35,254 nt of DNA from Candidatus Cloacimonadota bacterium (GCA_029564175.1 JAKQQL010000350.1:1-35254), one strand, 5' to 3'; counted from the first letter of the stretch, positions 4,016 through 18,728 are shown. The notes: a model not told the origin generated them from the sequence alone. Numbers and translations: made by a program.

Positions 4016-4030
4016 ATCAACTTCCTTAAA

Positions 4031-5689
4031 CTATTTTTTCTCATCACATTTCAAGATCGATTCCTCAATCTTTTTACGTTCGGACAATCGTGCTATTTCT
4101 TTAGTCATAGCAGTAGAATAATATTTTTTGGCATTAACAAAATCATTACGCGAATAATAATAATCACCGACCAGCTGATATACCAGATACATTTGCTGAT
4201 TTGTTTTCACATACAAGTCAATTTCCGCATCCGCAAATACATTTCTATTACTAATTGCAGATTTAATAACACCTGTTAAGCGCTTATATTCCATTGCATC
4301 TGAAAATTGTTTCGTTATTAAAACTCTACTTTCTCCAATCTGTTTATCAAACTCATTTATCTCTTTATCCTTCTGAAGTTTTGCGAATTTTGAAAATACT
4401 TTCTTCAGATCATATGCGGCATATTTTCCGAATTGATACGGAGATGTTGAAACCCAGACAATAAGATCTTCCGGCTTAAAAATAATCGAATGATGAGCAA
4501 GGAGCTGATTAATCGTCTTTTCGTTTCCTTTACCTATATCAGCGCCGTTCTTTCCGTTCATATCACGCAATATATCCGCGACGTCATCAACTTTCATCCC
4601 TTTCTTTCCTGATATCATCTCATTAACACGGTCGAACCTGTAGACGGATGACTCTTCCTGAATGGGAGCCTTATTCTTTAGAAAATGATTTGTTGAGATT
4701 ATAAGATCATTCCCTGTATCATAAATATCAGTTTTATCGGGCTTCTTTTCAATTATAATTGTTTTCTTATCTTTTGCAGATCCGATCATTATTGATTCCG
4801 CTACAAATGATTTTCTTTTTGAGGCTATTGAATACGCCTCGTCAATATTTTGTGAATACTGCAGTATTTCTCTGGCAATTAATGCTATAGGTGTCGCAAC
4901 AGATTTCGGTATATCATTTTCAGCTGCATTTATCGTGACTGTCAATCCGGCTTCATTCATTCCGGAAACCACACCCGTCATTCCGCCCCAAGTGACCATC
5001 ATATATTTATAACCTGATGACGGCGCGTAAAACGCTACGATCTTGTCTTTCGCAAAATCATCACCCATATTGAAATCGAAATTACGGCCGATAAGCATCT
5101 TCCCATCTGAAGTATATGAACCTTTTACTGAAAATGATGTACATCCTACAAGATGCATATTTACCAAAGCATGTCCTATATCATGAGCTCCGTGATAATT
5201 AAGCATTCTCTGATATTTCGGTCCGATATAGTCATATGCATCAGGTGCCGAACGTGATATTCCGTATATTTCTGAAAGATATTCCTGTTTGATATATTTA
5301 TCCAGATCACGATTAAACCATGCGACAAATACTTTTAAAATATTCAGATACGTGTCTGATGGAATCATCACCTTAATCTGATCAATAAAATATTTCTCCT
5401 GAAGACCTACAAGTGTTGAAGATAACTTCCCGGCTGCAACTCCTCTCTCATACGGGTCACCTTCGATATACATCTCCCATAAGCCATTTTCGCTTTTCCT
5501 GATTCTGCTTTTCCCGAATGAATACAGGGATCCGTTTATCAAAACAGGGGATTCTTTTTCAATAGATCTATTGTCCGGTGCAGGCTCATGCAGCATTACT
5601 GAAAAATACAGATAAACAAAAAAAACAACAGTCAATACAGCAAAACCTGCTGAAGAGTATTTTGCAATTTTAAGAAATCTTCTACGCAT
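4031..5689 (-). CDS. Peptidase C45 / acyl-CoA:6-aminopenicillanic-acid acyltransferase-like Ntn protein with C-terminal TPR-like tail
   Basis: 552 aa. N-terminal signal/TM, GCTSF motif (Gly-Cys autoproteolytic site of the isopenicillin-N acyltransferase family) and a C-terminal Tyr-rich TPR-like segment. Confidence 0.6.
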   Translation of the reverse strand: MRRRFLKIAKYSSAGFAVLTVVFFVYLYFSVMLHEPAPDNRSIEKESPVLINGSLYSFGKSRIRKSENGLWEMYIEGDPYERGVAAGKLSSTLVGLQEKYFIDQIKVMIPSDTYLNILKVFVAWFNRDLDKYIKQEYLSEIYGISRSAPDAYDYIGPKYQRMLNYHGAHDIGHALVNMHLVGCTSFSVKGSYTSDGKMLIGRNFDFNMGDDFAKDKIVAFYAPSSGYKYMMVTWGGMTGVVSGMNEAGLTVTINAAENDIPKSVATPIALIAREILQYSQNIDEAYSIASKRKSFVAESIMIGSAKDKKTIIIEKKPDKTDIYDTGNDLIISTNHFLKNKAPIQEESSVYRFDRVNEMISGKKGMKVDDVADILRDMNGKNGADIGKGNEKTINQLLAHHSIIFKPEDLIVWVSTSPYQFGKYAAYDLKKVFSKFAKLQKDKEINEFDKQIGESRVLITKQFSDAMEYKRLTGVIKSAISNRNVFADAEIDLYVKTNQQMYLVYQLVGDYYYSRNDFVNAKKYYSTAMTKEIARLSERKKIEESILKCDEKK

Positions 5690-7196
5690 TGCGCACCTTT
5701 CTAATTATATTATTAAAACCTAATATCTCACCGCAGGTTAAAAGAGAACATATGGTTACACCAAGAACTCCATGAATACTAATATTTTGTCCCGTCATAT
5801 AAAGATTTGGAACCTTTGTTTTAGCGGGAATATAAGATGCCAGCGGATCATTGCAGTCTTTCATAACACCGTAAATTGAACCGCGGTATGTCCCGGTATA
5901 ATCACGATAAGTAAGAGGTGATGAAGTATAATAATTTTTTATTTTAGACCTGAAACCCGGGAAACGCTCTTCAACACTATCAAGCAGCTTTTCTGCTTTC
6001 TCTTTTTTAAAATCCCGGTAATCATCACCGCGCTGTTCAATATATGAATCATTCCATTTCTCTACATCATCATAACTCATATATGTCATAATAATTCCGC
6101 AGTCCGCCCAAACGTCAGATTTTGATGAAGCGGGTGTAAGCAGCATGTATCCTTTCGGCCATGTTTTATCATTATAATCCATTCCGCTCCATATATCATC
6201 TGTACCATAACAATAATAGTTGTGATTCATATACTTAAAACTGTTTTCTTTAAAAGAAGCGTATAAACAGAATGTTGATGGAGTATTCGGTGCTGATGAA
6301 ACCCGGCTGCGGTATGCATTTTTTATAAAAGATGAATCAGTCATCTTCAAGGTTTCTGCCGGATGAATATTTGATATGAAGCGTTTTCCTTCGATAACAT
6401 CTCCGTCAGCAGTTTTAATACCTGAAATTCCTTCCGGACTTGATATAAACTCGACAACTTTTTTTTTCGTTAATACAGTTCCGCCATTATTCCGTATTTC
6501 ACCTGCAAGAAGTGACGCAAGCTGATCTCCTCCGTCAACAAAACGGTATGCGCTTTCTATGAAATGATTATTGATTACTGCATGAATATAAATCGGAGAA
6601 ACATTACGCTCTCCGGCATAAAGAGGATTTGTTCCTCCGAGAATATTTCTTAACATTAAATTATCAGTACAGGAATCAATAAAACCTGAAGCACTCTGCA
6701 TCAGATATTCACTGCTTATAATATTCATCGCACTGTCAATTTCACGCAGATTATAAGGCTTGAGCGATGATGTAATTTCTTTAATCTTCGAAATATATTT
6801 ATCAAGTGCAGCTGCTTCTTCAGGAAAATATCCAAGCATTGTTTCTTTAAATCTGTCATAACCTGTTGCATAATCGTAATTTTTTGAATCATCATGAAAA
6901 TTGATACGGTGAAAACATCCGTCATCAAGCTTCTTCAGTTTCAGTTTATCCATTACATTGAAATATTTAAACAGTTGATTCAGCACCTGACCGTCATCCA
7001 TGCTTCCAATATAATGCATCCCCGTGTCGAATACGCAATTGTCTCTTTTAAAAGTCTGCAGACATCCGCCTATCTGAAAATGTTTTTCGACAACGCATAC
7101 ATTCAGACCTTCTTTTGACAGAATACATCCGCAAGCAAGACCTCCAAGTCCGCTGCCAACAATCACGACATCATAATTAGACATTTTATAATCCAT
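5682..7196 (-). CDS. FAD-dependent oxidoreductase, phytoene-desaturase (CrtI) family, paralog 2
   Basis: 504 aa. N-terminal Rossmann dinucleotide motif VVIVGSGLGGLACG...VVEK. Paralogous to the upstream gene. 8-nt overlap with the downstream gene. Confidence 0.75.
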   Translation of the reverse strand: MDYKMSNYDVVIVGSGLGGLACGCILSKEGLNVCVVEKHFQIGGCLQTFKRDNCVFDTGMHYIGSMDDGQVLNQLFKYFNVMDKLKLKKLDDGCFHRINFHDDSKNYDYATGYDRFKETMLGYFPEEAAALDKYISKIKEITSSLKPYNLREIDSAMNIISSEYLMQSASGFIDSCTDNLMLRNILGGTNPLYAGERNVSPIYIHAVINNHFIESAYRFVDGGDQLASLLAGEIRNNGGTVLTKKKVVEFISSPEGISGIKTADGDVIEGKRFISNIHPAETLKMTDSSFIKNAYRSRVSSAPNTPSTFCLYASFKENSFKYMNHNYYCYGTDDIWSGMDYNDKTWPKGYMLLTPASSKSDVWADCGIIMTYMSYDDVEKWNDSYIEQRGDDYRDFKKEKAEKLLDSVEERFPGFRSKIKNYYTSSPLTYRDYTGTYRGSIYGVMKDCNDPLASYIPAKTKVPNLYMTGQNISIHGVLGVTICSLLTCGEILGFNNIIRKVRNA

Positions 7197-7199
7197 CCA

Positions 7200-8687
7200 T
7201 TATTTAATTCCTATTTTTTGCATAAGTGAATCAAGCCCCAGTATACTGCCGCAGGCAACAATTGAATTTATCGTGACGCCAAGTACACCATGAAGACTCA
7301 CATTCTGTCCCGCTAAAAACAGATTCGGTATTTTCGTTTTAACTGAAAGATGGGAACGCATAAAATCTTTTGAATCATGAAATATTCCATACATCGATCC
7401 GCGTACTGTTGCCGTGTAATCGCGATAAGTGAGAGGTGTTGAAGTATAATATGAATCAATCATGCCGGAAAATCCTGGAAATCTTTCCTCGATAAGCTTA
7501 ATCAGAGCTTGTGCTTTTTTCTCTTTAAATGCTTTATAATCATCACCACGTTTGCCTACGGAAGTATCATTCCATTTTTCGACTTCGTCATATTTCATAT
7601 AGCAGAGAACATTTACACCTCGAGCCCATTTCCCGTCATCTGTCGGTGAAGCTACAGAAAGAAAAAAGTTTTCAGGCCATACAGCTTCATCATATGATTC
7701 AATAGTCCAGACATTATCATTTCTGTAATGATAATAATTCGATTCTTTGTAAGGAAAAGCATTTTCTTTCATGACGGCATAAAGACCGAAAACTGAAATT
7801 GTATTTTCAAGATTAGCAAGACGTTCAGCATAAGGTTTTCTTATATATCTATTGTCAATCATTCCAACCGTTAAAGATGGATGAATGCAGGAAATGAATT
7901 TATCACCTTCAACAATATCTCCGGAAGAAGTCAAAGCTCCCATTATCAATCCTGAATCATTATGAACATAACGCGTTACTTCATGATTTAATAATATCTT
8001 TCCGGAGTTATTTTCAATAAAATCTGCCAGAAAGTCAGCAATCTGACCGCTGCCGTTTACTATTTTATATGCACTTTCAATATATGAATGATTAACAAGC
8101 GCATGTATATACATCGGTGTACGATCAGATACTCCTGCATAAAGCAAATTGGATCCGGCCAGTACAGATTGAAGTTTTTCATTATCTGTAATTGATTTCA
8201 GAAAAGCGATTGTACTTGTAGTGAAGTAGACTGAATCAGGAATAGTATTCGAGGTATTCATCGAAAATGAATCATTAACCCGCCGAAGAGTTTCACAGTA
8301 TTTTTTTATGGCGTTTTTTTCATTAGGAAACTCAGCAGTTAAAATTTCCTGAAATTTATCATATCCTACAGCATGATGAAATTCTTTTCCGTCACTTCCG
8401 AAAGAAATAATGTCATATGCATCAGAATTCATTCTTGTAAAATTAAGAACATCCATCAGACCTAGATAATTAAAACACTTCTCAAGAATCTGTCCTTTAT
8501 CCAATGATCCGATATAATGCACTCCGGTATCAAAAACCACGCCCTTTCTTTTAAAACTCTGAAGACATCCGCCGATAAGTGAGTTCTTTTCAAGAATACA
8601 CACTTTCAATCCGTTTTTAGCGAGAATAGATCCACATACAAGTCCGGAAAGTCCGCTTCCGGTAATTACAACATCATACTTTGCCAT
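7200..8687 (-). CDS. FAD-dependent oxidoreductase, phytoene-desaturase (CrtI) family, paralog 1
   Basis: 495 aa. VVITGSGLSGLVCG...ILEK dinucleotide fold and a conserved C-terminal GQN.S.HGVLG motif shared with its paralog. Confidence 0.75.
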   Translation of the reverse strand: MAKYDVVITGSGLSGLVCGSILAKNGLKVCILEKNSLIGGCLQSFKRKGVVFDTGVHYIGSLDKGQILEKCFNYLGLMDVLNFTRMNSDAYDIISFGSDGKEFHHAVGYDKFQEILTAEFPNEKNAIKKYCETLRRVNDSFSMNTSNTIPDSVYFTTSTIAFLKSITDNEKLQSVLAGSNLLYAGVSDRTPMYIHALVNHSYIESAYKIVNGSGQIADFLADFIENNSGKILLNHEVTRYVHNDSGLIMGALTSSGDIVEGDKFISCIHPSLTVGMIDNRYIRKPYAERLANLENTISVFGLYAVMKENAFPYKESNYYHYRNDNVWTIESYDEAVWPENFFLSVASPTDDGKWARGVNVLCYMKYDEVEKWNDTSVGKRGDDYKAFKEKKAQALIKLIEERFPGFSGMIDSYYTSTPLTYRDYTATVRGSMYGIFHDSKDFMRSHLSVKTKIPNLFLAGQNVSLHGVLGVTINSIVACGSILGLDSLMQKIGIK

Positions 8688-8690
8688 AAA

Positions 8691-11600
8691 TCACTGCTTC
8701 TTCAATATGTATATTTCATTCGATGTTTTAATCGATTTGTCATATATTTCAAATGAAAAGTTATTTGCTGAAGCAGTTTCTTTTATGAGACTTCTTGAAA
8801 TGAAAAACATGTTTTTATATTTTGTTTTATTGAACTTCAAACGTGTTGAAAATATTTCAGAAACACGTGTATAAAAATGTCTTCCGGACAGATCTTTATT
8901 CGCATCCCTTATAATGATCATACCATCTTTATTCAATTTACTCATGCATTTCACAATAAGATTTACCTGAACATCAGAAGGCATATAATGAAGCATGTCA
9001 CTCATAATAAAAACATCACTTTCCGGGAACTGATAACTGACAGCGTCTGCAGATTCAAATGATACATTCAGATCCGGAATTGTAATATTTTTCGCAACGT
9101 TAATTTTTTCACTGTCATAATCGATTCCGGAAATAATACGGTCATTAGATGCGAGAGCCAGCATATACGAAAGAAAACCATAACCACATCCGATATCAAC
9201 TATTGAAGCATTATCAGGTATAATCGAATTTAAGAATTCATAGTTTTTTTCAATTTTAAGCTTGATACGCATATACCATTCGAGTATTGGATCTTTATAA
9301 ATATATTTATCCACAAGAAATTCCGAAAAATATTTCGGGACTTCCCTTTCTTTACGGATTTTAACAAATTCATCAGAAATAATTCTACGTATTGATTTTG
9401 ATTTTTCTGAATAACCCGGAGCAGCATCAGAATTATTGAACGATATTCTCTTATTAATTTTTATTAATGCTGATCCGCTGTAAATCGCAAGAGTATTCTT
9501 TCTGATTATATCACCGGTTCCATGAATAATCAATGGAATGATATCCAGATTAAGTTTATCAGCCAGAAGAAATGCTCCCTTTCTGAAACGTCCCACAGAA
9601 GCGTTTCCGGAACGCGTTCCTTCCGGAAATACAAGAATGGAATATCCGTCCTTAACTCTTTCTTTAAGATCGTCTATATAATTTTCTATTCCGGCAGTTG
9701 CAGGAAAATATCCGGCAAGACGGACTACTAAACCCATAATATGCGACTTCCAGACCCATTCTTTAGTGAGAACAATTATTTTAGGAGAAAGAGATAAAAT
9801 AAATATTATATCCAGCATCGACTGATGATTAGCAATAATAACTCCCGGTTTTTTAAATGTCTCATTATGAACATTTTCAACTTTAAAATTAGAATACAAA
9901 GGAAATATAATAGAATATCTGCTAAGAAATCTGCATGAATACATTATCATCAATGAAAATATCCGCTGTCGTCTTTTTTTACCGAGAGGTAAAAGCTGCA
10001 TCAGCATTCCTGAAAATGCGAGATTCATGCATCCGAGAACAAAAAGAAAATATATAATTGAGCTGTTAATGATAACAGAAATCTTTAAAGGTCTGATGCT
10101 GTGCTTTCTTTTTACAATAAATTTAAAAAGCAAAGGTGGAATGATATTTGAAATTATATAAACTGAAAGTATTCCGATCGAGGATATGACAGCAATTGAT
10201 TTCAGTGCAGGATGTTTAGCAAAAAATAAAACTCCCATACCGGTAATATTAGTAAGTGCTGAAAAGAATATTGATTCCCTGCTTGATTCAAGACCATGAC
10301 CGCCGAACCGGTATTGGTGAATAAGACCTTGTATCATAATTATACTGTAATCAACACCAAGTCCGAATATTATCGATGAAATTATTATATTGAAGATATT
10401 AAATTTTATACCGGTCATTCCCATTAAACCCAGAATCCAAACCCAGCTGAGCGCAATAGGAATAAATGATATTGCTGCAAGCTCAAATCTCCCGAGAAAA
10501 ATTAAAAGTATTGTAAAAATCAAAACACTGTCTATAATAGAAAGAGAATTAAATTCAGCTTTAATCATATCTATAAACTTGTTCGTGAGATATTGTTTGT
10601 CGGCAACAATTACATCTGAAAAAGTATTCCGGTCTTTTTCATACAGAGAATAAAACTTATCCATGCTGTTGCGTTCAGCTTTAATCATCGTGACAACACG
10701 TATCTGACCGTTATTCTCTGTAACAAGATCCGGAAAAACCGCATCTTTTAATGTTTTAAAATCTTTTTCACTAATTCTGGAAAAATCTTTTTCCAAAAGA
10801 GCGTAGAATTCAGAAAAGACTCCCGGTTTAAAAGAATATTCCAGTGAAGATGATTCAATGTTCCGCTTCACAGATAATATTCTTTCAGGAGTCCAGAACT
10901 TCTTCCATCGTTCAATTTTTTTATCCTGCTCAGAACCTGAATTTAAAAGCGGGCTTATCGAAATAATTTTTTCAACTGAACCGTTATTCTGAAGCGGTTT
11001 AATAGCATTATATATTAATTCATTTTTTGCCAAAGCTGAATCAAGATTACTGCTTTCTGTAATAAGCATAACCGATTTTTGTTTGATCTTATCAAACATC
11101 GCAAACTTTTTTTCCACCGAAGCAACTTTTTCAGAAGTATAATTCAATTTGATGAGATCATCTTCAAATTTAACTTTAGTAATAAAAAAGGAACAGACAA
11201 TGGTTATAGCAATTACTGCAAGAATCAGCAATTTGCTTTTTTCAAAATCATGACTGAAAAGCCACTTTATATACTTGTTGCTTCGATATCTGTATTCTTT
11301 ATGTTCTTTCAGATCCTTATACCGGTAAAAATGAGGGACAATTATCAGAGAAAAGAAAGCTGCTCCGATCATATTGAAAACCGCAAAAAGACTTAAATCT
11401 TTCAGCATATCAGATTTAACCAAGTATAGGCAGAGAAATCCTGAAACGTTTGTTGCACAGCACATAACCACAGGAAAAACAGTTTCCTTGAATTTAGAAC
11501 GCTCCGGATGCATTGATCTGAAATGCGTACTAACATGTATTGCATAATCGATCATGATTCCGAGTAAAGCCGAACCAATACCAAGTGAAATCAGAGATAT

Positions 11601-12563
11601 CTTTCCTTTAATTACAAAAAGCATTCCGATTGAAAAAGCAAATCCGAAAATAACCGGAAGCAGCAGAACAAAAAGAAGACGCTTTTCTTTTATTACTGCG
11701 AAAACAATAAACAGAATTATAATTAGCGCGATAGAAACAGTGAAGAAAATATCTTTTTGAATTTGAGATGCGTTATCTGCTGAAACTACAGGAACTCCAT
11801 AATAATCAATACTTATCTTACCATCATACTTTTTTACTATTTTAGATATTTCAATATCAAGCAATTTGAAAAAAGCTAGATTATCAGATGTCATATTTGA
11901 TGGAAATGCCGGATTGATAAAAATAAGCAGATTCCTGTCATCTTTAGTCAGGATATAATTACTGTAGAGATGATAATTATCATCAATCTGAAGTGTCTGC
12001 ATCTGGCGTAATGCCTGAAAAGAAATACCAAGCGGATCTTTCAGCATATATTCCTTCAAGACAATGCTGCCGGGACTCATAAGAAATTTATAATTACGCG
12101 CAATCGATTTATCGATGCCATCACGATCTAACCGAGTTTCTAGATTTTTATAATCATCTTCAGTCATGAATAAAGGAAGATTGTTATAAAATACAGAATG
12201 TATCTGAGAAAGATTTTCTTCAGAAACAGTATCTTTGATGGTTTTGACATATTTAGGTTGAAACTTCTCACGAAGAATCCCTGTAAATTCACCAGATGAA
12301 TTTACAAGCATATCAGGATCCGCAATATTTCCCTCATTGATACTTACAGATATGATTATCTTTTCCACCAATGGACTGTTCTGCAGAAAAGAACTTACCT
12401 TTTCAAAGTTTGAGCTTTTAGGAAAAAAAGAATATATATTTTCTTCAAAACGCAACTTCGTCACTGATAAAGAAGATATTAGCAAAAGCAGAAGAAGAAA
12501 TACAACAAAAAGCTTCCGGCGTTTGGAAAAAAATTGATATATTGCAAAAAATAATTCAGACAT
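8691..12563 (-). CDS. Tri-domain fusion: MMPL/RND-type exporter (aa ~1-820), PlsC-type acyltransferase (aa ~825-1045; HX4D NHQSMLD, FPEGTRS) and class I SAM-dependent methyltransferase (aa ~1075-1290; VDIGCGYG)
   Basis: Single uninterrupted 1290-aa ORF. The N-terminal part has two blocks of 5-6 TM helices with large loops (MMPL topology). The PlsC catalytic motifs and the methyltransferase motif I lie downstream in the same frame. Confidence 0.8.
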   Translation of the reverse strand: MSELFFAIYQFFSKRRKLFVVFLLLLLLISSLSVTKLRFEENIYSFFPKSSNFEKVSSFLQNSPLVEKIIISVSINEGNIADPDMLVNSSGEFTGILREKFQPKYVKTIKDTVSEENLSQIHSVFYNNLPLFMTEDDYKNLETRLDRDGIDKSIARNYKFLMSPGSIVLKEYMLKDPLGISFQALRQMQTLQIDDNYHLYSNYILTKDDRNLLIFINPAFPSNMTSDNLAFFKLLDIEISKIVKKYDGKISIDYYGVPVVSADNASQIQKDIFFTVSIALIIILFIVFAVIKEKRLLFVLLLPVIFGFAFSIGMLFVIKGKISLISLGIGSALLGIMIDYAIHVSTHFRSMHPERSKFKETVFPVVMCCATNVSGFLCLYLVKSDMLKDLSLFAVFNMIGAAFFSLIIVPHFYRYKDLKEHKEYRYRSNKYIKWLFSHDFEKSKLLILAVIAITIVCSFFITKVKFEDDLIKLNYTSEKVASVEKKFAMFDKIKQKSVMLITESSNLDSALAKNELIYNAIKPLQNNGSVEKIISISPLLNSGSEQDKKIERWKKFWTPERILSVKRNIESSSLEYSFKPGVFSEFYALLEKDFSRISEKDFKTLKDAVFPDLVTENNGQIRVVTMIKAERNSMDKFYSLYEKDRNTFSDVIVADKQYLTNKFIDMIKAEFNSLSIIDSVLIFTILLIFLGRFELAAISFIPIALSWVWILGLMGMTGIKFNIFNIIISSIIFGLGVDYSIIMIQGLIHQYRFGGHGLESSRESIFFSALTNITGMGVLFFAKHPALKSIAVISSIGILSVYIISNIIPPLLFKFIVKRKHSIRPLKISVIINSSIIYFLFVLGCMNLAFSGMLMQLLPLGKKRRQRIFSLMIMYSCRFLSRYSIIFPLYSNFKVENVHNETFKKPGVIIANHQSMLDIIFILSLSPKIIVLTKEWVWKSHIMGLVVRLAGYFPATAGIENYIDDLKERVKDGYSILVFPEGTRSGNASVGRFRKGAFLLADKLNLDIIPLIIHGTGDIIRKNTLAIYSGSALIKINKRISFNNSDAAPGYSEKSKSIRRIISDEFVKIRKEREVPKYFSEFLVDKYIYKDPILEWYMRIKLKIEKNYEFLNSIIPDNASIVDIGCGYGFLSYMLALASNDRIISGIDYDSEKINVAKNITIPDLNVSFESADAVSYQFPESDVFIMSDMLHYMPSDVQVNLIVKCMSKLNKDGMIIIRDANKDLSGRHFYTRVSEIFSTRLKFNKTKYKNMFFISRSLIKETASANNFSFEIYDKSIKTSNEIYILKKQ

Positions 12564-12610
12564 TATTTTCTCCCCAAATAATTAACAATAAATTGAATCT
12601 AAATAAACAT

Positions 12611-13822
12611 TTAATACTTATAATGTCTATATATCTTAAGCGGAATATAGCAAAGAATACCACCGGCAACAGCTACAGCAGATCCGAACACCAAACTCCC
12701 GATAACATACTGAAAAAGATGATCCTTTACAAAACTGAATGAAAAAGCTGAGGAATATGTAATCTCAGAATCACCGCAATTTAGAAGCAGAGTACCGGTC
12801 TTATAACTGAGAAATATTATCAAAGGAATAAACGGAGGAATACTGATATGAGCTGATGCTATAACTATAAATTTATTAAGTTTTAAAAATGAAGCAACTG
12901 CTATTGCAATGATAAGCTGGTAACCCCATACTGGAGCTATCCCCATAAATAAACCGAAGGCCACAGAGGAAACAATCTTAAGAGTAGGTTCATCTTTAAG
13001 AAATATATTTTTTTTTACATATTTTTTGATATTTGACGGCGTCAGACTTAAAATGAAATTCCTGGGTTTAATATATAAAAAAGCCCAAATGACAAATACA
13101 GTATTAAGAACACTTATTCTTGAGAAATCTTTAAACGGCCTGAAATGAGAAACTCTTTCCTCTTTATCCTGATAAACAACATGAATAGGTGCTGAAAAAA
13201 CATTAATTTTATTCCATGCAGCTCTGACAAGAACTTCAATTTCGAACTCAAACTTTCGTGTAAAATAACTTTTTTTTCCGACATGCTCAAGCGGATAAAG
13301 CCTGTAACCGGACTGAGTATCAGGCAGTGCAAAACCCGTTTCTAGTTTGAACCAGAAATTTGAAAATTTATTTCCGAAACTACTTTTTTTTGGAATATGA
13401 GACTGTTCCATATTTCTTGAACCGATAATAATTGATCCCGGTTCTGAAGATATCTTTTCGAGAAATACATGCAGATCAGAAGGAAGATGCTGACCGTCAG
13501 AATCTATTGTAATAGCATAGCTGTATTTTTTAGTATAAGCATAACGGAAAGCTTTTCGAAGCGCAGCCCCCTTTCCTCCATTTTTTTCAATTTGTATTAC
13601 CTGACATATTTTTTCATATTTTTTAAGAATCTTTTTCGTGGCATCAGTTGATCCGTCATTAACAACAATTATACGGTCAGTATAATTTAAAAGATCATCA
13701 ATCAAAGCGGACAAAGTTGAACAATTATTATATGTAGGAATAATTATACAGCAATTTAACCTTATAAACTCTGATCTAACTTTAGCCTTTGTCATTATTT
13801 TATTTTTTTTTGCGGATATCAT
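12611..13822 (-). CDS. Family 2 glycosyltransferase with C-terminal membrane (DUF2062-like) domain
   Basis: 403 aa. CIIIPTYNN...VVNDGSTD...DSDGQH motifs of GT2. C-terminal 150 aa are hydrophobic. Confidence 0.8.
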   Translation of the reverse strand: MISAKKNKIMTKAKVRSEFIRLNCCIIIPTYNNCSTLSALIDDLLNYTDRIIVVNDGSTDATKKILKKYEKICQVIQIEKNGGKGAALRKAFRYAYTKKYSYAITIDSDGQHLPSDLHVFLEKISSEPGSIIIGSRNMEQSHIPKKSSFGNKFSNFWFKLETGFALPDTQSGYRLYPLEHVGKKSYFTRKFEFEIEVLVRAAWNKINVFSAPIHVVYQDKEERVSHFRPFKDFSRISVLNTVFVIWAFLYIKPRNFILSLTPSNIKKYVKKNIFLKDEPTLKIVSSVAFGLFMGIAPVWGYQLIIAIAVASFLKLNKFIVIASAHISIPPFIPLIIFLSYKTGTLLLNCGDSEITYSSAFSFSFVKDHLFQYVIGSLVFGSAVAVAGGILCYIPLKIYRHYKY

Positions 13823-14181
13823 GAAAACTTCCCTTTAAACTTCATAAAAGTTTTTTCACCGTTAAGCAGAGACGATTTTACTTCATAATAATTGTTATCA
13901 TTAATTTTCACCGACAAATCAACTGTAAGCCTAGAATCAACAGTCGGATCCACTACCGAAAGATATTTAATATTTTCGCCTTCAACCATCATTCGTTTTT
14001 CGTTTGTAACTTTTTCAAGGACAGATCCAATTACAGCAATCATCAAAACACCAGGAAGAATCGGTTTATCCGGAAAATGACCCTTAAAAACATCATGTTT
14101 CTCATTAATAATAATTTCAGATATATATTTGCCTTCCGATGTCATTTCTATTTTCAATATGTTAAATACTTTATCATTCAT
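13819..14181 (-). CDS. FabA/FabZ-like hotdog dehydratase (APE-type DH subunit)
   Basis: 120 aa. HFPDKPILPGVLMIA matches the FabZ active-site region (His, then PG). 4-nt overlap with GT gene. Confidence 0.7.
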   Translation of the reverse strand: MNDKVFNILKIEMTSEGKYISEIIINEKHDVFKGHFPDKPILPGVLMIAVIGSVLEKVTNEKRMMVEGENIKYLSVVDPTVDSRLTVDLSVKINDNNYYEVKSSLLNGEKTFMKFKGKFS

Positions 14182-14887
14182 TATCGCCTACATTCTCCAA
14201 TTGAATAAATTCCATTTTAAGATCTATATTATAATGAGTAATAATTATTCTCTGCAAAACGTTTTTATCTGAATACAAATAATCCAATTTTACATTCTTA
14301 TAAGAACTTGATGAATTTTCAATACTTACCAGACGATCATTTTCATCTGTAAAATAGTAGTTAAAATCATTGCCCGTTTTATATTTATAAACTTTTCTCT
14401 TCGATAACAGATCAATAAATATTTCTGCAAAAGATGAATCATTATCTTCCATCAGCATTAATCGAAGATTTTTCTGAAGTGTCTTCATCACCATCTTTCT
14501 TTTTACAAAGTCAAGAGATCCATGATCTGTAAAAACACCATGATCAAGTTCAAAATCAAAAACTCCCATTCCGACTTCTGTGACGAAAACAATCCGATAA
14601 TGCGAATCACCCAGATTCTTAATAAACATAATCCCGCTAAAATGCCTTCCGTAAACATCAATACCGGTTTTAAAAAGAATCTTGTCTTTCTCCATACTGT
14701 TAAGTTTAAATTTTTTTAATTCAAACTTAACAGATCCTGCAGGTTTAAGGTCTCCGTACTGGGCAGTGGCACATCCGGAAAATATCAGCAGAAAACTACA
14801 TACCGGGATTAAAAATGCTGTCCGGAATATTTTTGTTAAATTCCCTATTTCTAAATACAATGTTCGTATAGTCGCCTGATTTTTCAT
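14174..14887 (-). CDS. Lipoprotein of unknown function (DUF3261-like partner of LolA-like protein)
   Basis: 237 aa. Lipobox LIFSGC after a hydrophobic leader. Its 5' end overlaps the upstream LolA-like gene by 92 nt, so the start is uncertain or a frameshift is present. Confidence 0.5.
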   Translation of the reverse strand: MKNQATIRTLYLEIGNLTKIFRTAFLIPVCSFLLIFSGCATAQYGDLKPAGSVKFELKKFKLNSMEKDKILFKTGIDVYGRHFSGIMFIKNLGDSHYRIVFVTEVGMGVFDFELDHGVFTDHGSLDFVKRKMVMKTLQKNLRLMLMEDNDSSFAEIFIDLLSKRKVYKYKTGNDFNYYFTDENDRLVSIENSSSSYKNVKLDYLYSDKNVLQRIIITHYNIDLKMEFIQLENVGDNE

Positions 14888-15446
14888 ATATATTCATTTC
14901 CGTTACTGCTAAATATTTATCATCAAAATATATTTCAATCCGTGTTACATATTTTAAAAGGTCATTTGACTTCGGTGAAAGCTTTACGAGATATTTATTC
15001 TGTAATTTGAAGAACGAAACAGAAAAATTAGGATTTTCCGTTATTACGCCTTTCATGCTTGATAATATTGTTCCGTTTATTTCCTGAAATATTCTATTCG
15101 CCTTTGCGTCGAATTGAGTTGTTTTTCCATCATCATTTATAAATACTTTTGATCCGTTATAGATTATAATATATTTGTACGGTTTTTGATATTCCCATCG
15201 TATCATATTGTCTTTCTTAAAATAGAAAACACCGCTTGATTTAATCTTTTCTGAAAGAACACTTATATTTTTCACCTGAACAAATGAGCTGTGAATACTT
15301 GTTGTATTTCGGGCGACCGCAGAAAGTTTGGCGCTGATTTCCGTTTTTTCAGAATCTGAAAGCTGACGCATATCTGCAGCTGAAAGTGTAGCTGCACATA
15401 ATATCGCAACAATAAATGCAAACTTAAACATAAGGTTTCCTCTCAA
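14796..15446 (-). CDS. LolA-like outer-membrane lipoprotein carrier family protein
   Basis: 216 aa with signal peptide (MFKFAFIVAILCAATLSAA) and LolA-like length and β-rich composition. An alternative start at 15431 (MFKFAF) would give an 8-nt ATGTTTAA overlap with the upstream gene. Confidence 0.7.
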   Translation of the reverse strand: MRGNLMFKFAFIVAILCAATLSAADMRQLSDSEKTEISAKLSAVARNTTSIHSSFVQVKNISVLSEKIKSSGVFYFKKDNMIRWEYQKPYKYIIIYNGSKVFINDDGKTTQFDAKANRIFQEINGTILSSMKGVITENPNFSVSFFKLQNKYLVKLSPKSNDLLKYVTRIEIYFDDKYLAVTEMNIYEKSGDYTNIVFRNREFNKNIPDSIFNPGM

Positions 15447-16197
15447 TTAAAATATTCAGCGGTTCGATAGAGAATCCCTCATTTCGAACAGCATTTATCA
15501 GTTCAGGTAGAATTGAAATCATCTTTTGATTATAATCGTGAAAATTTAATATTGACCCATTATCAATCTTTCTTAAAATTCTATCAATCATCTTTTTCTG
15601 ATCTTTAATAATTGTATCATAGGTTCTGAATGACCACCCGATCACAGTATAATCCATTTTTTTTAAAGCCCGCGACAAAGAGGGATTTGTAACGCCGTAT
15701 GGCGGTCTGAAAAAAAGAGGCTTATTGCCGGTTATCTCCTTAATTATTTTATCAGTTTCATTCAATTCATTGACCATCATTTTCGATGTAAAAAAATCAA
15801 ACCAGTATGAATGCGACCATGTATGATTTCCGATAATATGCCCTTCAGCAACTATTCTTTCAGCAATAACCTTATTCGACTTAATTGATTTTCCTGTACA
15901 GAAAAATGCCGCCTTAACCTTATGCGAAGCGAGAATATCTAACATTTCAGGTGTATATTCCCTTAAAGGTCCGTCATCAAAAGTTAAAGAAATCTGTTTT
16001 TTTTTCTGATTGCCTGAGCAGATAGCAGGAATATAGAATTGTGACGAAATATTAAACGAAAAAAAAGCAAGTAATGAAATATATATAATTACGCAAGCAA
16101 TAGGAATAATTAAACTGATATAATTATGATAATATAATACAATCGATGTGACTTCCACAATATTAAACAATGCGAGTGATATATAATATTTAATCAT
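15424..16197 (-). CDS. Polysaccharide deacetylase (CE4 / NodB-homology)
   Basis: 257 aa. N-terminal TM, then TFDDGP...H..SH NodB motifs. Confidence 0.8.
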   Translation of the reverse strand: MIKYYISLALFNIVEVTSIVLYYHNYISLIIPIACVIIYISLLAFFSFNISSQFYIPAICSGNQKKKQISLTFDDGPLREYTPEMLDILASHKVKAAFFCTGKSIKSNKVIAERIVAEGHIIGNHTWSHSYWFDFFTSKMMVNELNETDKIIKEITGNKPLFFRPPYGVTNPSLSRALKKMDYTVIGWSFRTYDTIIKDQKKMIDRILRKIDNGSILNFHDYNQKMISILPELINAVRNEGFSIEPLNILIERKPYV

Positions 16198-17200
16198 TTT
16201 CTACAGTCACAAAAGAATAATATTTATTATTAAATTTATTTATTAACACAATTTTTGATACAGTAGTTGAATTACCAGCATCAAATGAAATATTTTTCAA
16301 TCCATTTTTCAGCAGCATGCATGCAAAATACAATGCATATGATGTCGATGTAAAATATTCACCGCAGTACTTCTTAAACAAAATCACTCCGCAATCGGCG
16401 AAAATTTTTGAAACAGGAATCACTTCGTCTATCTCTCCACCGAACAGTACAAGATCAGTTTTATCTTTAATTGATTTGTTGTCATTATAATAATTTTCTA
16501 TTACATCAAGAATATTTTCATCTGAATTATTATAAATCATTTTAACAGATGAAATTTTTCCATAACGCATATTTTTCTTTTCACCAGATAAAAGAAAAAA
16601 AGCCGCCCCTTCACCATATGGAAATTTGTTTTTATTAAGATTTAAATTGAACGCGATTTCGAAATTTTCAAGAATATCCGCAAGTTTATCTGTAAGTTCA
16701 TCAACAGAACCTGCAAGGAATTTTAAGCCGGGTTTTTCATCAATCTGCATCATTGCATCCATTAAAGCAGATTCAAATGAAAATCCTCTACTTGAAAAAG
16801 TTGAATTATAGCCATGGCATTTTAGGGCAATAGCGATCTGGGATGATATTGAATTATGTGTTGATGAAATGAACGCACTCGGAGAAGGAAGCTCTTCATG
16901 ACCTTCAATTACTGAATTTAAAAACTTCTCGGTATCTTCAATACAGCCGATTGCAGTTCCCGTTATAATACCGTCAGGAATATCAACAGATGCATCATTA
17001 AGCGCCATCTTTGCTGAAGCGAGACCCATTTTGATGATCCTTGACAATCTGCGGGATATTTTAGGGTCAATATAATCTTTATACTGCGGTTCGACCGGAT
17101 GAAGAATACGGGAATCATTGATTGCCTTATTGTTCTGAAAATCATTATCAAAAGGTGACCCCGCAGATATATTCCCTAAACCGGATATGTACATATTCAT
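16190..17200 (-). CDS. β-ketoacyl synthase-like protein (KS N-terminal-domain fold, probably non-canonical or inactive)
   Basis: 336 aa thiolase-fold-like sequence (ISGLGNISA...) lacking the C-terminal His-His KS motifs. 8-nt overlap downstream. Confidence 0.6.
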   Translation of the reverse strand: MNMYISGLGNISAGSPFDNDFQNNKAINDSRILHPVEPQYKDYIDPKISRRLSRIIKMGLASAKMALNDASVDIPDGIITGTAIGCIEDTEKFLNSVIEGHEELPSPSAFISSTHNSISSQIAIALKCHGYNSTFSSRGFSFESALMDAMMQIDEKPGLKFLAGSVDELTDKLADILENFEIAFNLNLNKNKFPYGEGAAFFLLSGEKKNMRYGKISSVKMIYNNSDENILDVIENYYNDNKSIKDKTDLVLFGGEIDEVIPVSKIFADCGVILFKKYCGEYFTSTSYALYFACMLLKNGLKNISFDAGNSTTVSKIVLINKFNNKYYSFVTVEND

Positions 17201-17205
17201 AATTT

Positions 17206-18405
17206 CTACTCAACCTTTGAAAAAATAATACTGCTGTTATTTCCGCCGAAACCGAATGAATTGGACATTATATTACGAAGATTATCTTTTTTCATTATTG
17301 CCGAGACTGGAGCAGTGGAAAGCTCTTTCATCCTAGTTGCAAAATTTATATTCGGGTATATAGTATTTGTTTTTAAACTAAGAGCGGAAATAACAGCTTC
17401 AACAGCTCCTGCAGCACCTAAAGTGTGACCGGTATAAGATTTTGTTGAACTGTAAAATGGAATTGCTCCGGAAAAAACTTCTTCAATAGCAAGACCTTCA
17501 GATAAATCATTATTAGACGTTCCGGTACCGTGAAGATTGATATAATCAATTTCTGACGGATCAAGTAAAGCGCTATTCAAAGCAGATCTCATCGCAAGCT
17601 TTGGTCCGATTCCCTCTTCAGACATCGCAGTCTGATGGAAAGCGTCACAGCTGTTTCCGAATCCTTTTATCTCGCATATGACATCATTCATATGCGATGA
17701 AGCAGATCTTTCAGATTCTATAAAAAGAAATGCAGCACCTTCGCCGAGATTAAGCCCGTTTCTGTTTTCATCAAAAGGTGAACATAATTTTGAATCAAGA
17801 ATCTTCAGGGAATTAAAACCGTTAAGTGTAAATTTTGCTAGAGAATCAACACCGCCTGCGACTGCGGCGTCAATTATACCGGATTTTATCAACATTGATG
17901 CATGTATAATTGAATTTGCAGATGAAGAACATGCCGTACTGACAGTTGAAAGATAACCTTTGATACCTAATTTATCAGCGATAAACTCAGTCGAAAATCC
18001 GCAATCATGCTGTTTGAGATCGCTTATGTCAGCATCAATCCCTGCATAAACCGACTGAAAATATTTTTCACTTAGATCCATGCCGCCGACTGTACTGCCG
18101 GAAACAATTCCCAAACGGCTGGAATTATAATTTTCTATCATCTCACCTGCAGCTTCTCTCGCCGCAGCAAGCGCTAACAAATATGTTCGAGAATAGTTTT
18201 TAATCGGCAGTGAGAGATTATCACATAAATCCTTATTGGACAATTTCACTTCCCCGACAGGAAATAAATCCTTCAGCCGTGAATCAAGATACTGCATACC
18301 GGATATGCCGCTTTTCTGAGCAGCAAGCGATGAAAGTGTTTCTGAAGCGGAATTCCCCGCCGCACAAACAATTCCGATCCCGGTTACGAATATCCGATGA
18401 CTCAT
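17206..18405 (-). CDS. β-ketoacyl-ACP synthase (KS, ApeR-like)
   Basis: 399 aa. Active-site Cys in TACSSS, His in HGTGT and the C-terminal NSFGFGGNN motif. Confidence 0.85.
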   Translation of the reverse strand: MSHRIFVTGIGIVCAAGNSASETLSSLAAQKSGISGMQYLDSRLKDLFPVGEVKLSNKDLCDNLSLPIKNYSRTYLLALAAAREAAGEMIENYNSSRLGIVSGSTVGGMDLSEKYFQSVYAGIDADISDLKQHDCGFSTEFIADKLGIKGYLSTVSTACSSSANSIIHASMLIKSGIIDAAVAGGVDSLAKFTLNGFNSLKILDSKLCSPFDENRNGLNLGEGAAFLFIESERSASSHMNDVICEIKGFGNSCDAFHQTAMSEEGIGPKLAMRSALNSALLDPSEIDYINLHGTGTSNNDLSEGLAIEEVFSGAIPFYSSTKSYTGHTLGAAGAVEAVISALSLKTNTIYPNINFATRMKELSTAPVSAIMKKDNLRNIMSNSFGFGGNNSSIIFSKVE

Positions 18406-18410
18406 AATTA

Positions 18411-18680
18411 TTATTTCCTTTTCAACATGATAAAATCAGCCATCGATTTTACAGATTGCAGAATCGCTTTACCGTCATCAGCATCAGTCATCTTTATTCC
18501 GTATTTCTTTTCTAGAATCAGAATAAGTTCAAGAGCATCGATTGAATCTAGACCAAGTCCTTCCGGACCGAACAATGGACCTTCAGTTTCAATATCGTCT
18601 ATACTAAGATCCTCAAAATTCAGTTGTTCAATAATTTCCTTTTTCAGCTTTACGATCAGTTCGTCCATATATCCTCGCAT
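18411..18680 (-). CDS. Acyl carrier protein
   Basis: 89 aa with phosphopantetheine attachment motif LGLDSIDALEL. Confidence 0.85.
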   Translation of the reverse strand: MRGYMDELIVKLKKEIIEQLNFEDLSIDDIETEGPLFGPEGLGLDSIDALELILILEKKYGIKMTDADDGKAILQSVKSMADFIMLKRK

Positions 18681-18728
18681 TTTATCAATAAACTTATTTT
18701 TTCTTTATCAGCTATTTAAATATATTTT

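What the first reader, a model, noticed from the sequence alone, without database searches (positions are those of the whole stretch)
8691..12563. Single 1290-aa polypeptide fusing MMPL exporter, PlsC acyltransferase and SAM methyltransferase
In described APE and flexirubin clusters the MMPL exporter, the glycerol/phospholipid acyltransferase and the methyltransferase are separate genes. Here one uninterrupted frame carries all three, with the HX4D motif at aa 912-917, FPEGTRS at 979-985 and GCGYG at 1124-1129. A fusion would couple late tailoring and lipid attachment physically to export across the inner membrane. It may also simply mark lineage-specific gene fusion.
Basis: seen in the sequence. 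Interest (0 to 1): 0.55.

Follow-up and report, generated by a model that had tools for sequence, protein, structure and literature searches.

The report
FlxU: known flexirubin transporter–acyltransferase–methyltransferase fusion
The 1290-residue three-in-one protein is real, but it is an ordinary copy of FlxU, a fusion protein found in hundreds of flexirubin-type pigment gene clusters and already named in public annotation, so the fusion itself is not a discovery.

Summary
Window 8691-12563 (minus strand) is one uninterrupted 1290-aa ORF. It carries a 12-helix RND/MMPL lipid transporter (aa 1-818), a PlsC-type acyltransferase with its two-helix membrane anchor (aa 828-1045; HQSMLD 913-918, FPEGTRS 979-985) and a class I SAM methyltransferase (aa 1116-1290; DIGCGYG 1123-1129).

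The novelty claim does not hold. The protein is the orthologue of FlxU (Cpin_1873) of the Chitinophaga pinensis flexirubin cluster. [quoted passage not shown] Full-length fusions are widespread. I found at least 499 relatives in species-representative genomes and 665 50%-identity clusters in metagenomes, in conserved synteny. The window sequence itself is already deposited. The three functions are separate genes only in the E. coli/Xenorhabdus-type APE clusters, and the fused methyltransferase is not an ApeB orthologue.

Residual points of interest:
- The host appears to be a Spirochaetota MAG lineage.
- Flavobacteriia copies carry an eroded methyltransferase remnant.
- I found no biochemical test of FlxU in the searchable literature.

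The parts
8691..12563 (-). Whole flxU-type gene: 1290-aa trifunctional RND transporter / lysophospholipid acyltransferase / SAM methyltransferase
   Evidence: Single ORF. Pfam and NCBIfam domains. Identical to P0129; independent assemblies differ by substitutions only. Gapless codon alignment to a 64% relative.
10110..12563 (-). RND/MMPL lipid-transporter module, aa 1-818: 12 TM helices and two periplasmic domains (about aa 36-256 and 464-655)
   Evidence: Pfam MMPL; NCBIfam HpnN/HAE3 partial hits. AF2 model pLDDT 80.5, pTM 0.71 with 12 long helices. Best fold matches are HpnN 5KHN/6WU0 (E 1e-22), then MmpL3/4/5, NCR1 and Patched.
11544..11549 (-). TM4 Asp339-Tyr340 pair (candidate proton-relay residues)
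   Evidence: Present in the window protein. Across 81 family members the Asp column is D33/N38/S9, so it is not universally conserved. The proton-relay role is assumed by analogy with MmpL3/HpnN (my own knowledge).
10347..10352 (-). TM10 Asp738-Tyr739 pair (candidate proton-relay residues)
   Evidence: D738 is invariant in alignment A1 and present in 80 of 81 sequences in the locus set.
9906..10082 (-). Two long helices, aa 828-886: PlsC-type monotopic membrane anchor linking TM12 to the acyltransferase core
   Evidence: AF2 helices 14-41 and 48-72 of the aa 815-1290 model. The PlsC 5KYM alignment starts at aa 837 by sequence and covers all of PlsC by fold, TM-score 0.83-0.86.
9429..9905 (-). 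PlsC/LPLAT acyltransferase catalytic core, aa 887-1045
   Evidence: PF01553 E 4e-19. 5KYM E 2e-14. E. coli ApeD aligns to aa 838-1008 at 26% identity, E 4e-13.
9810..9827 (-). HX4D catalytic motif, HQSMLD (aa 913-918)
   Evidence: H913 and D918 are each present in 80 of 81 sequences.
9609..9629 (-). FPEGTRS acceptor-binding motif (aa 979-985)
   Evidence: E981 is present in 79 of 81 and R984 in 80 of 81 sequences.
9219..9428 (-). Helical linker between the acyltransferase and the methyltransferase (aa 1046-1115)
   Evidence: AF2 helices with high pLDDT. Conserved residues E1095, Y1097 and K1101 are invariant. The linker is also conserved in the Flavobacteriia copies.
8694..9218 (-). Class I SAM-dependent methyltransferase domain (aa 1116-1290); substrate unknown
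   Evidence: Pfam Methyltransf_31/25/11. Rossmann fold matching generic small-molecule methyltransferases. D1123, G1125, C1126, G1127, G1129, D1148, D1150, D1189 and H1192 are invariant in 42 tri-domain homologues. No similarity to E. coli ApeB.
9177..9203 (-). SAM-binding motif I, IVDIGCGYG (aa 1121-1129)
   Evidence: Intact in 46 of 120 homologues and degenerate (ILHLANDYG) in 74 Flavobacteriia-type homologues.
12611..13822 (-). flxT-like GT2 glycosyltransferase with a DUF2062 membrane domain, immediately upstream
   Evidence: Pfam. Conserved neighbour in 65 of 80 related loci. Homologous to the N-terminal half of E. coli ApeJ.
14174..15446 (-). LolA-like (14796-15446) and flexirubin LolB2 (14174-14887) carriers: presumed periplasmic and outer-membrane hand-off partners
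   Evidence: Pfam LolA. NCBIfam LolB2_flexi scores 117 bits against a cut-off of 60.
2723..27418 (-). Whole flexirubin-type (flxA to flxY) type II PKS cluster in which flxU sits
   Evidence: Tyrosine/histidine ammonia-lyase, SDR, KS/CLF genes, two ACPs, dehydratases, thioesterase, LpxL-like acyltransferase, deacetylase, desaturase-like genes, C45 hydrolase and FlxY ligase. Collinear with Chitinophaga, Phocaeicola and Flavobacterium loci and with the flx gene list in PMC12968099.

Best explanation
The gene is the orthologue of flxU, the standard trifunctional protein of flexirubin-type aryl-polyene clusters.

Shown:
- An HpnN/MmpL-like 12-TM RND lipid transporter is followed in the same chain by a complete PlsC-type acyltransferase, including its two-helix membrane anchor, and an intact class I SAM methyltransferase.
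- All catalytic motifs are conserved across the family.
- The gene sits in conserved order between the GT2-DUF2062 gene and the desaturase-like gene, close to LolA- and LolB2-like genes.

Inferred mechanism:
- The N-terminus and the end of TM12 face the cytoplasm. Both enzyme domains therefore sit on the cytoplasmic face of the inner membrane, directly under the transporter.
- The acyltransferase takes a cluster-made acyl chain from one of the two cluster ACPs and esterifies it to a lyso-glycerolipid-type acceptor, the role assigned to ApeD in the Xenorhabdus APE-lipid pathway.
- The GT2/DUF2062, LpxL-like and deacetylase enzymes complete the glycolipid anchor.
- The methyltransferase methylates the pigment or its lipid intermediate; the substrate is unknown.
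- The RND module, probably driven by the proton gradient (Asp-Tyr pairs in TM4 and TM10), extracts the finished lipid from the inner membrane and passes it to the LolA/LolB2-like carriers for delivery to the outer membrane.
For: Identity as FlxU:
- Domain architecture.
- At least 499 confirmed relatives in species-representative genomes, nearly all single ORFs of about 1270-1300 aa, in Chitinophaga, Mucilaginibacter, Niabella, Phocaeicola vulgatus, Bacteroides, Alistipes and others.
- 665 representative clusters at E <= 1e-30; the top 150 all cover the TM-bundle + acyltransferase + methyltransferase query.
- Conserved synteny KS-CLF-deacetylase-LolA-LolB2-DH-GT2-FlxU-desaturase-FlxW-FlxY.
- Curated flexirubin NCBIfam models above cut-off on neighbours: FlxY 685 vs 520 bits, LolB2_flexi 117 vs 60 bits.

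Mechanism:
- PlsC fold including the anchor helices and the HpnN/MmpL fold.
- Invariant H913, E981, R984, D738 and the GxGxG residues.
- ApeD and ApeM are distant homologues of the matching parts.
- Roles assigned to ApeD, ApeJ, ApeM, ApeL and ApeN in the APE-lipid pathway.
- Flexirubin is located in the outer membrane, and flxP-flxU were proposed to act in export.
- Several MmpL4/5-type transporter structures among the fold hits were solved in complex with the acyl carrier protein AcpM. This shows that an RND lipid transporter can dock ACP-linked chemistry on its cytoplasmic face.
Against: - I found no biochemical or genetic test of FlxU in the searchable literature. The acyl donor, the acceptor, the methyl acceptor and the transported species are all inferred.
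- The methyltransferase is not homologous to ApeB, the ring methyltransferase of the E. coli-type cluster. Chitinophaga pinensis also has a separate methyltransferase, FlxJ, so a ring-methylation role is not established.
- The TM4 Asp is replaced by Asn or Ser in more than half of family members, so the proton-relay analogy is imperfect.
- No darA/darB genes are visible in the window, so the final product may not be a true flexirubin ester.
Confidence: 0.9

Rival explanations
1. The long ORF is an assembly or annotation artefact: three adjacent genes merged by a missed stop codon or frameshift.
For: Nothing positive. Reads could not be inspected, and in E. coli-type APE clusters the three functions are separate genes.
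Against: Seven independent 1290-aa assemblies differ by substitutions only. There is a gapless 1290-codon alignment to a 64% relative, with many synonymous changes across both junctions. Hundreds of orthologues from isolates and MAGs have the same length and architecture. The AF2 model is confident across the acyltransferase-methyltransferase linker; it does not resolve the short TM12-to-anchor connector.
Confidence: 0.01
2. The tri-domain fusion is a new, lineage-specific invention of this organism.
For: The nearest Bacteroidota orthologues are only 42-43% identical. The host appears to be a Spirochaetota lineage, where I found no paper describing flexirubin clusters.
Against: The same architecture is present throughout Bacteroidota, was described in 2014 and has a standard product name. 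An identical sequence is already deposited.
Confidence: 0.02
3. Same protein, different chemistry: the PlsC-like domain forms the pigment's defining ester bond directly, by transferring the aryl-polyene acyl chain to a dialkylresorcinol or other phenolic or sugar acceptor, rather than acylating a lysophospholipid.
For: Flexirubin is an ester of the polyene acid with a dialkylresorcinol (abstract). The enzyme for that step is only guessed to be FlxW. The domain is catalytically intact.
Against: The domain is a typical PlsC, with the glycerolipid-type FPEGTR motif and the PlsC membrane anchor. Its closest APE counterpart, ApeD, is assigned lysophospholipid acylation. The fusion is also conserved in gut Bacteroidales loci, and no dar genes are seen in this window.
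Confidence: 0.15
4. Same protein, reversed logic: the transporter module retrieves or flips a lysolipid acceptor to the cytoplasmic face for re-acylation, as in the LplT-Aas lysophospholipid repair system, instead of exporting the product.
For: NCBIfam model NF006386 (acyl-[ACP]--phospholipid O-acyltransferase, 1147-position profile) matches the acyltransferase region. From my own knowledge, not tested here, that family includes transporter-acyltransferase fusions, so there may be a precedent for an importer coupled to a PlsC-type enzyme.
Against: The closest transporters by fold (HpnN, MmpL3/4/5) are outward lipid transporters. The cluster encodes LolA- and LolB2-like carriers, and flexirubin and APE pigments end up in the outer membrane.
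Confidence: 0.08

Closest known systems
[quoted passage not shown]
   Same: Same three domains in the same order and similar length: 1282 aa in C. rupis against 1290 aa here. Same catalytic motifs and the same position between the GT2-DUF2062 and desaturase-like genes.
   Different: Only about 36-38% identical to Chitinophaga copies, and 42-43% to the nearest Bacteroidales MAGs. The host appears to be Spirochaetota. This cluster variant adds a B12-radical SAM gene and a second desaturase-like gene and lacks a standalone FlxJ-type methyltransferase.
Fjoh_1078 and other Flavobacteriia FlxU homologues (about 1200-1236 aa, annotated '1-acyl-sn-glycerol-3-phosphate acyltransferase')
   Same: Transporter and acyltransferase parts are as conserved as in tri-domain relatives (34% and 50% identity to the query). 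The synteny is the same.
   Different: Their C-terminal tail is an eroded methyltransferase remnant: motif I is ILHLANDYG, the post-I acidic residue is lost, about 55 residues are missing, and identity is 21%. The window protein has an intact methyltransferase.
ApeM + ApeD (+ ApeB) of the E. coli CFT073 / Xenorhabdus aryl-polyene lipid cluster
   Same: ApeM (RND) and ApeD (LPLAT) are distant homologues of the matching parts (18% identity, E 1e-10; 26% identity, E 4e-13). Both clusters have two ACPs, LolA/LolB-like carriers, and GT and LpxL-like functions.
   Different: They are three separate genes in E. coli. ApeB does not match the fused methyltransferase domain. E. coli instead fuses GT2 with the LpxL-like acyltransferase as ApeJ, and those two are separate genes here.
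HpnN (hopanoid transporter) and the mycobacterial MmpL3/4/5 RND lipid transporters
   Same: Best fold matches for aa 1-830: 12 TM helices with two periplasmic domains, and an Asp-Tyr pair in TM10. Several MmpL4/5-type entries were solved with the acyl carrier protein AcpM bound, a non-covalent version of coupling ACP-linked chemistry to a transporter.
   Different: No solved RND transporter returned by the PDB searches carries covalently fused enzyme domains. Structure-based sequence identity is only about 10-14%.
Thermotoga maritima PlsC (PDB 5KYM)
   Same: The whole fold, including the N-terminal two-helix membrane anchor, HX4D and FPEGTR (E 2e-14; TM-score 0.83-0.86).
   Different: PlsC is a free-standing housekeeping enzyme. 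Here the domain is tethered to TM12 of a transporter and followed by a methyltransferase.

Membership tests
FlxU-type trifunctional protein of flexirubin clusters | Single polypeptide with MMPL/RND, PlsC-type acyltransferase and class I methyltransferase domains, in that order, about 1250-1300 aa | tested here: met
   The same architecture is seen in 46 of 120 retrieved homologues and in about 70 of the 80 genome loci examined.
FlxU-type trifunctional protein of flexirubin clusters | Full-length homology to FlxU orthologues of Chitinophaga and other Bacteroidota | tested here: met
   tblastn matches over query residues 1-1290 to Chitinophaga rupis, C. alhagiae, Chitinophaga sp. YR627 and others at 36-38% identity, E = 0. 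C. pinensis Cpin_1873 itself was not retrieved; the equivalence goes through its genus-mates and the description.
FlxU-type trifunctional protein of flexirubin clusters | Genomic position inside a flxA-flxY-type cluster, between flxT (GT2-DUF2062) and flxV (desaturase/reductase-like) | tested here: met
   gene list.
FlxU-type trifunctional protein of flexirubin clusters | Requirement for flexirubin production or localisation | not testable with these tools
   The only indirect evidence is that the Fjoh_1078-1089 fragment complemented a pigment-negative F. johnsoniae mutant.
RND superfamily, MMPL/HpnN-like lipid transporters | 12 TM helices as two 6-TM repeats, with large periplasmic domains after TM1 and TM7 | tested here: met
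   AF2 secondary structure, hydropathy and fold matches to HpnN and MmpL3/4/5.
RND superfamily, MMPL/HpnN-like lipid transporters | Charged or polar proton-relay residues in TM4 and TM10 | tested here: inconclusive
   D339-Y340 and D738-Y739 are present in the window protein. The TM10 Asp is invariant, but the TM4 Asp is D33/N38/S9 across the family. No functional test was possible.
PlsC / LPLAT acyltransferases (PF01553) | HX4D catalytic dyad and the FPEGTR motif | tested here: met
   HQSMLD 913-918 and FPEGTRS 979-985; conserved in 79-80 of 81 sequences.
PlsC / LPLAT acyltransferases (PF01553) | PlsC fold with the N-terminal two-helix membrane-association motif | tested here: met
   5KYM aligned over its whole length, TM-score 0.83-0.86, rmsd about 3 A; helices at aa 828-855 and 862-886.
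Class I SAM-dependent methyltransferases | Rossmann-like fold with the GxGxG motif I and an acidic residue at the end of strand 2 | tested here: met
   DIGCGYG 1123-1129 and GIDYD 1146-1150. Invariant in 42 tri-domain homologues. Fold matches to many SAM methyltransferases.
ApeB-type aryl-polyene ring methyltransferase | Sequence homology to ApeB of the E. coli / Xenorhabdus cluster | tested here: not met
   BLASTP of CFT073 ApeB against the protein gives no alignment to aa 1100-1290.
True flexirubin (aryl-polyene dialkylresorcinol ester) producer | darA/darB dialkylresorcinol genes in the genome | tested here: inconclusive
   No gene in the window has a DarB-like (KAS III/FabH-type) best match, but I ran no DarA/DarB-specific search. 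In C. pinensis the dar genes lie outside the flx cluster, so their absence from 35 kb is not decisive.

The most novel reading that the evidence does not exclude
A Spirochaetota lineage carries a diverged, horizontally acquired Bacteroidota-type flexirubin cluster whose FlxU works as an obligatory synthesis-to-export machine. In this reading the fused methyltransferase, intact here but decayed in Flavobacteriia, is the enzyme that decides whether the pigment or its anchor is methylated. Presence or decay of this domain would then predict pigment chemistry across phyla.
Probability: 0.25. Interest if true: 0.4.

Novelty: already known. Interest (0 to 1): 0.15.

Why it matters
The fusion itself adds nothing new: it is a standard, named component of a well-known pigment pathway.

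What is still worth knowing is that FlxU has, as far as I could find, never been studied biochemically. A transporter covalently tied to two lipid-tailoring enzymes is a natural test case for coupled synthesis and export of outer-membrane lipids. This is the covalent counterpart of the MmpL4/5-AcpM complexes. The intact versus eroded methyltransferase split gives a ready comparative handle.

The apparent presence of the whole cluster in a Spirochaetota lineage slightly extends the known range of flexirubin-type clusters.

Tried and rejected
- The first genome-collection scan, with the single protein, found nothing because exact peptide patterns reach only close relatives. I repeated it with a profile.
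- My first two motif-based tallies of the 80 loci used regexes that were too strict (NHQS, FPE[GAS]) and wrongly dropped 16 or more loci, including all Chitinophaga. Direct ORF listing showed those are intact, and I redid the tally without a prefilter.
- I tested the idea that the fusion equals ApeM+ApeD+ApeB. It holds for ApeM and ApeD only as distant homology, and it fails for ApeB.
- Fold searches did not identify the methyltransferase substrate; only generic small-molecule methyltransferases were returned.
- Literature searches for functional work on FlxU, Fjoh_1078 or Cpin_1873, and for Bacteroides aryl-polyene MMPL methyltransferases, found nothing beyond Schoner 2014.
- Rfam and tRNA scans of the window were empty.


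Full report

Yes. Window 8691..12563 on the minus strand is a single ATG-initiated ORF of 1290 codons with one terminal stop. The two alternative frames of that strand contain 89 and 136 stops.

- Pfam finds MMPL (two stretches), Acyltransferase PF01553 (aa 895-1013, E 4e-19) and several class I methyltransferase models (aa 1117-1224).
- NCBIfam adds partial HpnN/HAE3 RND hits, AGP_acyltrn and UbiG-like hits.

Reads are not available, but the indirect evidence is strong:

- The protein is identical to a catalogued sequence (P0129 / MGYP000989625634).
- Six other independently assembled 1290-aa versions differ by 2-43 substitutions and no indels.
- A 64%-identical relative aligns over all 1290 codons without a single gap. 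Synonymous-only differences make up 26 of 50 and 15 of 34 codons in the two junction windows.

**2. What is it?**

The surrounding genes form a flexirubin-type type II PKS cluster from about 27418 down to 2723 on the minus strand. In order, it contains:

- aromatic amino-acid ammonia-lyase, SDR ketoreductase, KS, ACP
- LpxL-like acyltransferase, B12-binding radical SAM protein
- ApeP-like dehydratase, thioesterase, KS, ACP, KS/CLF
- polysaccharide deacetylase, LolA-like, LolB2-like, ApeI/FabA-like dehydratase
- GT2-DUF2062
- the 1290-aa gene
- two CrtD/CrtI-like oxidoreductases, a C45/Ntn hydrolase and an acyl-CoA ligase

Curated NCBIfam equivalog models score above their cut-offs on three neighbours: FlxY (685 vs 520 bits), flexirubin LolB2 (117 vs 60 bits) and the 'lipid biosynthesis B12-binding/radical SAM protein' TIGR04072 (417 vs 360 bits).

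The gene order matches the flx gene list quoted in PMC12968099. [quoted passage not shown] Its F. johnsoniae homologue Fjoh_1078 is listed as 'predicted exporter- and acyltransferase domain' (PMC3992019). The window gene is therefore an flxU orthologue.

**3. How common is the fusion?**

- A word-indexed search of 5.8 billion proteins returned about 45 full-length tri-domain clusters (1251-1301 aa, 32-67% identity) and many MMPL+acyltransferase proteins of about 1225 aa from Flavobacteriia.
The top 80 include Chitinophaga, Mucilaginibacter, Niabella, Terrimonas, Phocaeicola vulgatus ATCC 8482, Bacteroides, Alistipes, Muribaculaceae, Prevotellaceae and Marinilabiliales.
- These are single intact ORFs, for example 1282 aa in C. 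rupis and 1287 aa in locus L001. Most of the 80 fall in the 1250-1300-aa bin.
- An exhaustive phmmer search of 1.84 billion 50%-identity representatives, using aa 640-1290 as query, gave 665 hits at E <= 1e-30. The best 150 (all E <= 1e-123) cover the entire last-TM-bundle + acyltransferase + methyltransferase query, and most are 1256-1301 aa.
- Synteny around the gene is conserved: GT2-DUF2062 lies upstream in 65 of 80 loci and a desaturase-like gene downstream in 63 of 80. The full KS-CLF-deacetylase-LolA-LolB2-DH-GT2-FlxU-desaturase-FlxW-FlxY order is seen in Chitinophaga, Phocaeicola, Bacteroides, Alistipes and Flavobacterium.

**4.

In the E. coli CFT073 APE cluster the RND transporter (ApeM), the lysophospholipid acyltransferase (ApeD) and the methyltransferase (ApeB) are indeed separate genes.

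- ApeM and ApeD are distant homologues of the matching parts of the window protein (18% identity, E 1e-10 over aa 262-810; 26% identity, E 4e-13 over aa 838-1008).
- ApeB shows no similarity to the C-terminal methyltransferase domain. The fusion is therefore not 'ApeM+ApeD+ApeB in one chain'.
- E. coli ApeJ is itself a fusion of two genes that are separate here, GT2 (12611-13822) and the LpxL-like acyltransferase (22732-23622). Domain fusion and fission go both ways between the cluster subfamilies.
- For flexirubin clusters, the statement that the three functions are separate genes is simply incorrect.

**5. Anatomy and likely mechanism**

*Transporter.* An AlphaFold model of aa 1-830 (pLDDT 80.5, pTM 0.71) shows 12 long helices and two periplasmic domains. 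Its best structural matches are the hopanoid transporter HpnN (E 1e-22), then MmpL3/4/5, NCR1 and Patched, all of them lipid- or sterol-handling RND proteins. The TM10 Asp738 is invariant. The TM4 Asp339 is present here but is Asn or Ser in over half of the family.

*Enzyme module.* A model of aa 815-1290 is confident (pLDDT 88.8, pTM 0.86). It has two long helices (aa 828-855 and 862-886), an alpha/beta acyltransferase core, a helical linker and a Rossmann methyltransferase.

- T. maritima PlsC (5KYM) superposes over its entire length, including its two-helix membrane-association motif (TM-score 0.83-0.86).
- The methyltransferase resembles generic small-molecule methyltransferases.
- H913, D918, E981, R984 and the GxGxG, post-I Asp and D1189/H1192 residues are conserved across tri-domain members. 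Both enzymes therefore look active.

*Inference.* The positively charged N-terminus and the basic stretch after TM12 place both chain ends of the transporter in the cytoplasm. The anchor helices behave like PlsC's monotopic motif. Both enzyme domains would then sit on the cytoplasmic membrane face beneath the transporter.

By analogy with the experimentally dissected Xenorhabdus APE-lipid pathway (ApeD acylates a lyso-glycerolipid, ApeJ adds sugar and the aryl polyene, ApeM/L/N export), I propose the following:

- The acyltransferase domain loads a cluster-made acyl chain from ACP onto a lysolipid acceptor.
- The methyltransferase modifies the pigment or the anchor.
- The RND module hands the product to the LolA/LolB2-like carriers for outer-membrane delivery. 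This fits the outer-membrane location of flexirubin and the export role suggested for flxP-flxU.

Several MmpL4/5-type transporter structures among the fold hits were solved with the acyl carrier protein AcpM bound. They show that ACP-linked chemistry can dock on RND lipid transporters, and FlxU would be a covalent version of that. None of these functional steps has been tested.

**6. An observation beyond the finding**

The roughly 1225-aa Flavobacteriia proteins are not truly two-domain. Their C-terminal 220 residues align with the window protein's linker and the start of its methyltransferase (E 1e-11 to 1e-20). In all 74 examined:

- motif I is degenerate (ILHLANDYG instead of I[VL]D[IL]GCGYG)
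- the post-I acidic residue is lost
- about 55 residues are missing
- identity to the query drops to 21% in this region (against 43% in the 41 tri-domain homologues from outside the window's own lineage), while the transporter and acyltransferase parts remain equally conserved

Intact copies occur in Chitinophagales, Sphingobacteriales, Cytophagales, Bacteroidales and at least one Flavobacteriales MAG. Decay within Flavobacteriia is therefore the parsimonious reading. This matches the 2014 annotations of Cpin_1873 versus Fjoh_1078.

**7. Host and cluster variant**

- The 97%-identical proteins are deposited as Spirochaetota MAG proteins (HPY02736.1, HQE59162.1) and named '1-acyl-sn-glycerol-3-phosphate acyltransferase'.
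- A flanking stomatin-like gene has named relatives at 66-100% identity that are almost all Spirochaetota, Spirochaetes or Leptospirales MAGs.
- The nearest Bacteroidota FlxU is only 42-43% identical.
- I found no paper linking flexirubin clusters with Spirochaetota.
- An IS200-type transposase fragment abuts the flxA end of the cluster.
- This lineage's cluster, including its 64%-identical relative L082, has two tandem desaturase-like genes and a B12-radical SAM gene.

**8. Verdict**

The claim of an unusual fusion is not supported, because this is FlxU, a common, previously described and routinely annotated trifunctional protein.

Novelty: already known. Interest is low. The residual value lies in the uncharacterised biochemistry of FlxU, the methyltransferase decay in Flavobacteriia and the apparent Spirochaetota host.

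Noticed in passing
window 27788-35235 and the whole contig: The host looks like a Spirochaetota MAG lineage rather than Bacteroidota. Near-identical FlxU proteins are deposited as Spirochaetota bacterium. The flanking stomatin-like gene (29862-30743) has almost only Spirochaetota-labelled relatives at 66-100% identity. I found no paper linking flexirubin clusters to this phylum.
   Followed up: partly
related proteins P0048-P0120; loci L076 and L079 (Flavobacterium), match at 10001-13531: The roughly 1225-aa Flavobacteriia FlxU homologues, annotated as two-domain, carry an eroded methyltransferase remnant. Motif I is ILHLANDYG, about 55 residues are deleted, and identity is 21%. Their transporter and acyltransferase parts stay conserved.
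   Followed up: yes
window 5682-7196 and 7200-8687 (minus strand): There are two tandem CrtD/CrtI-like FAD oxidoreductase genes downstream of flxU, where Bacteroidota relatives show one. Both window copies map to the same single gene in the related loci. The duplication is shared with the 64%-identical relative L082.
   Followed up: partly
window 21351-22793 (minus strand): A B12-binding radical SAM gene sits inside the cluster and scores above cut-off for TIGR04072, 'lipid biosynthesis B12-binding/radical SAM protein' (417 vs 360 bits). It was seen in only 5 of 80 related loci, although it lies near the 10-kb flank limit. It is present in L082. It is a possible methylase of the polyene or lipid; no standalone FlxJ-type methyltransferase is present in the window.
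   Followed up: partly
window 27788-28108 (minus strand): A truncated IS200/Y1-type transposase ORF (it matches only positions 45-121 of the 121-position Pfam profile) lies directly beside the flxA end of the cluster. This would fit past mobility of the cluster.
   Followed up: no
L081 (E. coli CFT073) 41212-42888, compared with window 12611-13822 and 22732-23622: E. coli ApeJ is a fusion of a GT2 glycosyltransferase and an LpxL-like acyltransferase, which are two separate genes about 9 kb apart in the window. Fusion and fission run in opposite directions in the two cluster subfamilies.
   Followed up: yes
window 1-35254: No gene in the 35-kb window has a DarB-like (KAS III/FabH-type) best match, though I ran no DarA/DarB-specific search. 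The product may therefore be an aryl-polyene lipid rather than a true flexirubin ester. In C. pinensis the dar genes lie elsewhere in the genome.
   Followed up: partly
window 18729-19382 (minus strand): A 217-aa ORF lies between a KS gene and an ACP gene and has no Pfam or NCBIfam hit. Its counterpart in L082 (203 aa) has only a faint ketoacyl-synt hit. It may be a degenerate KS/CLF-like partner.
   Followed up: no
window 16-2481 (plus strand): A hybrid sensor histidine kinase (dCache, PAS, HisKA, HATPase and receiver domains) is encoded divergently next to the flxY end of the cluster. It is a possible regulator; I did not examine it further.
   Followed up: no
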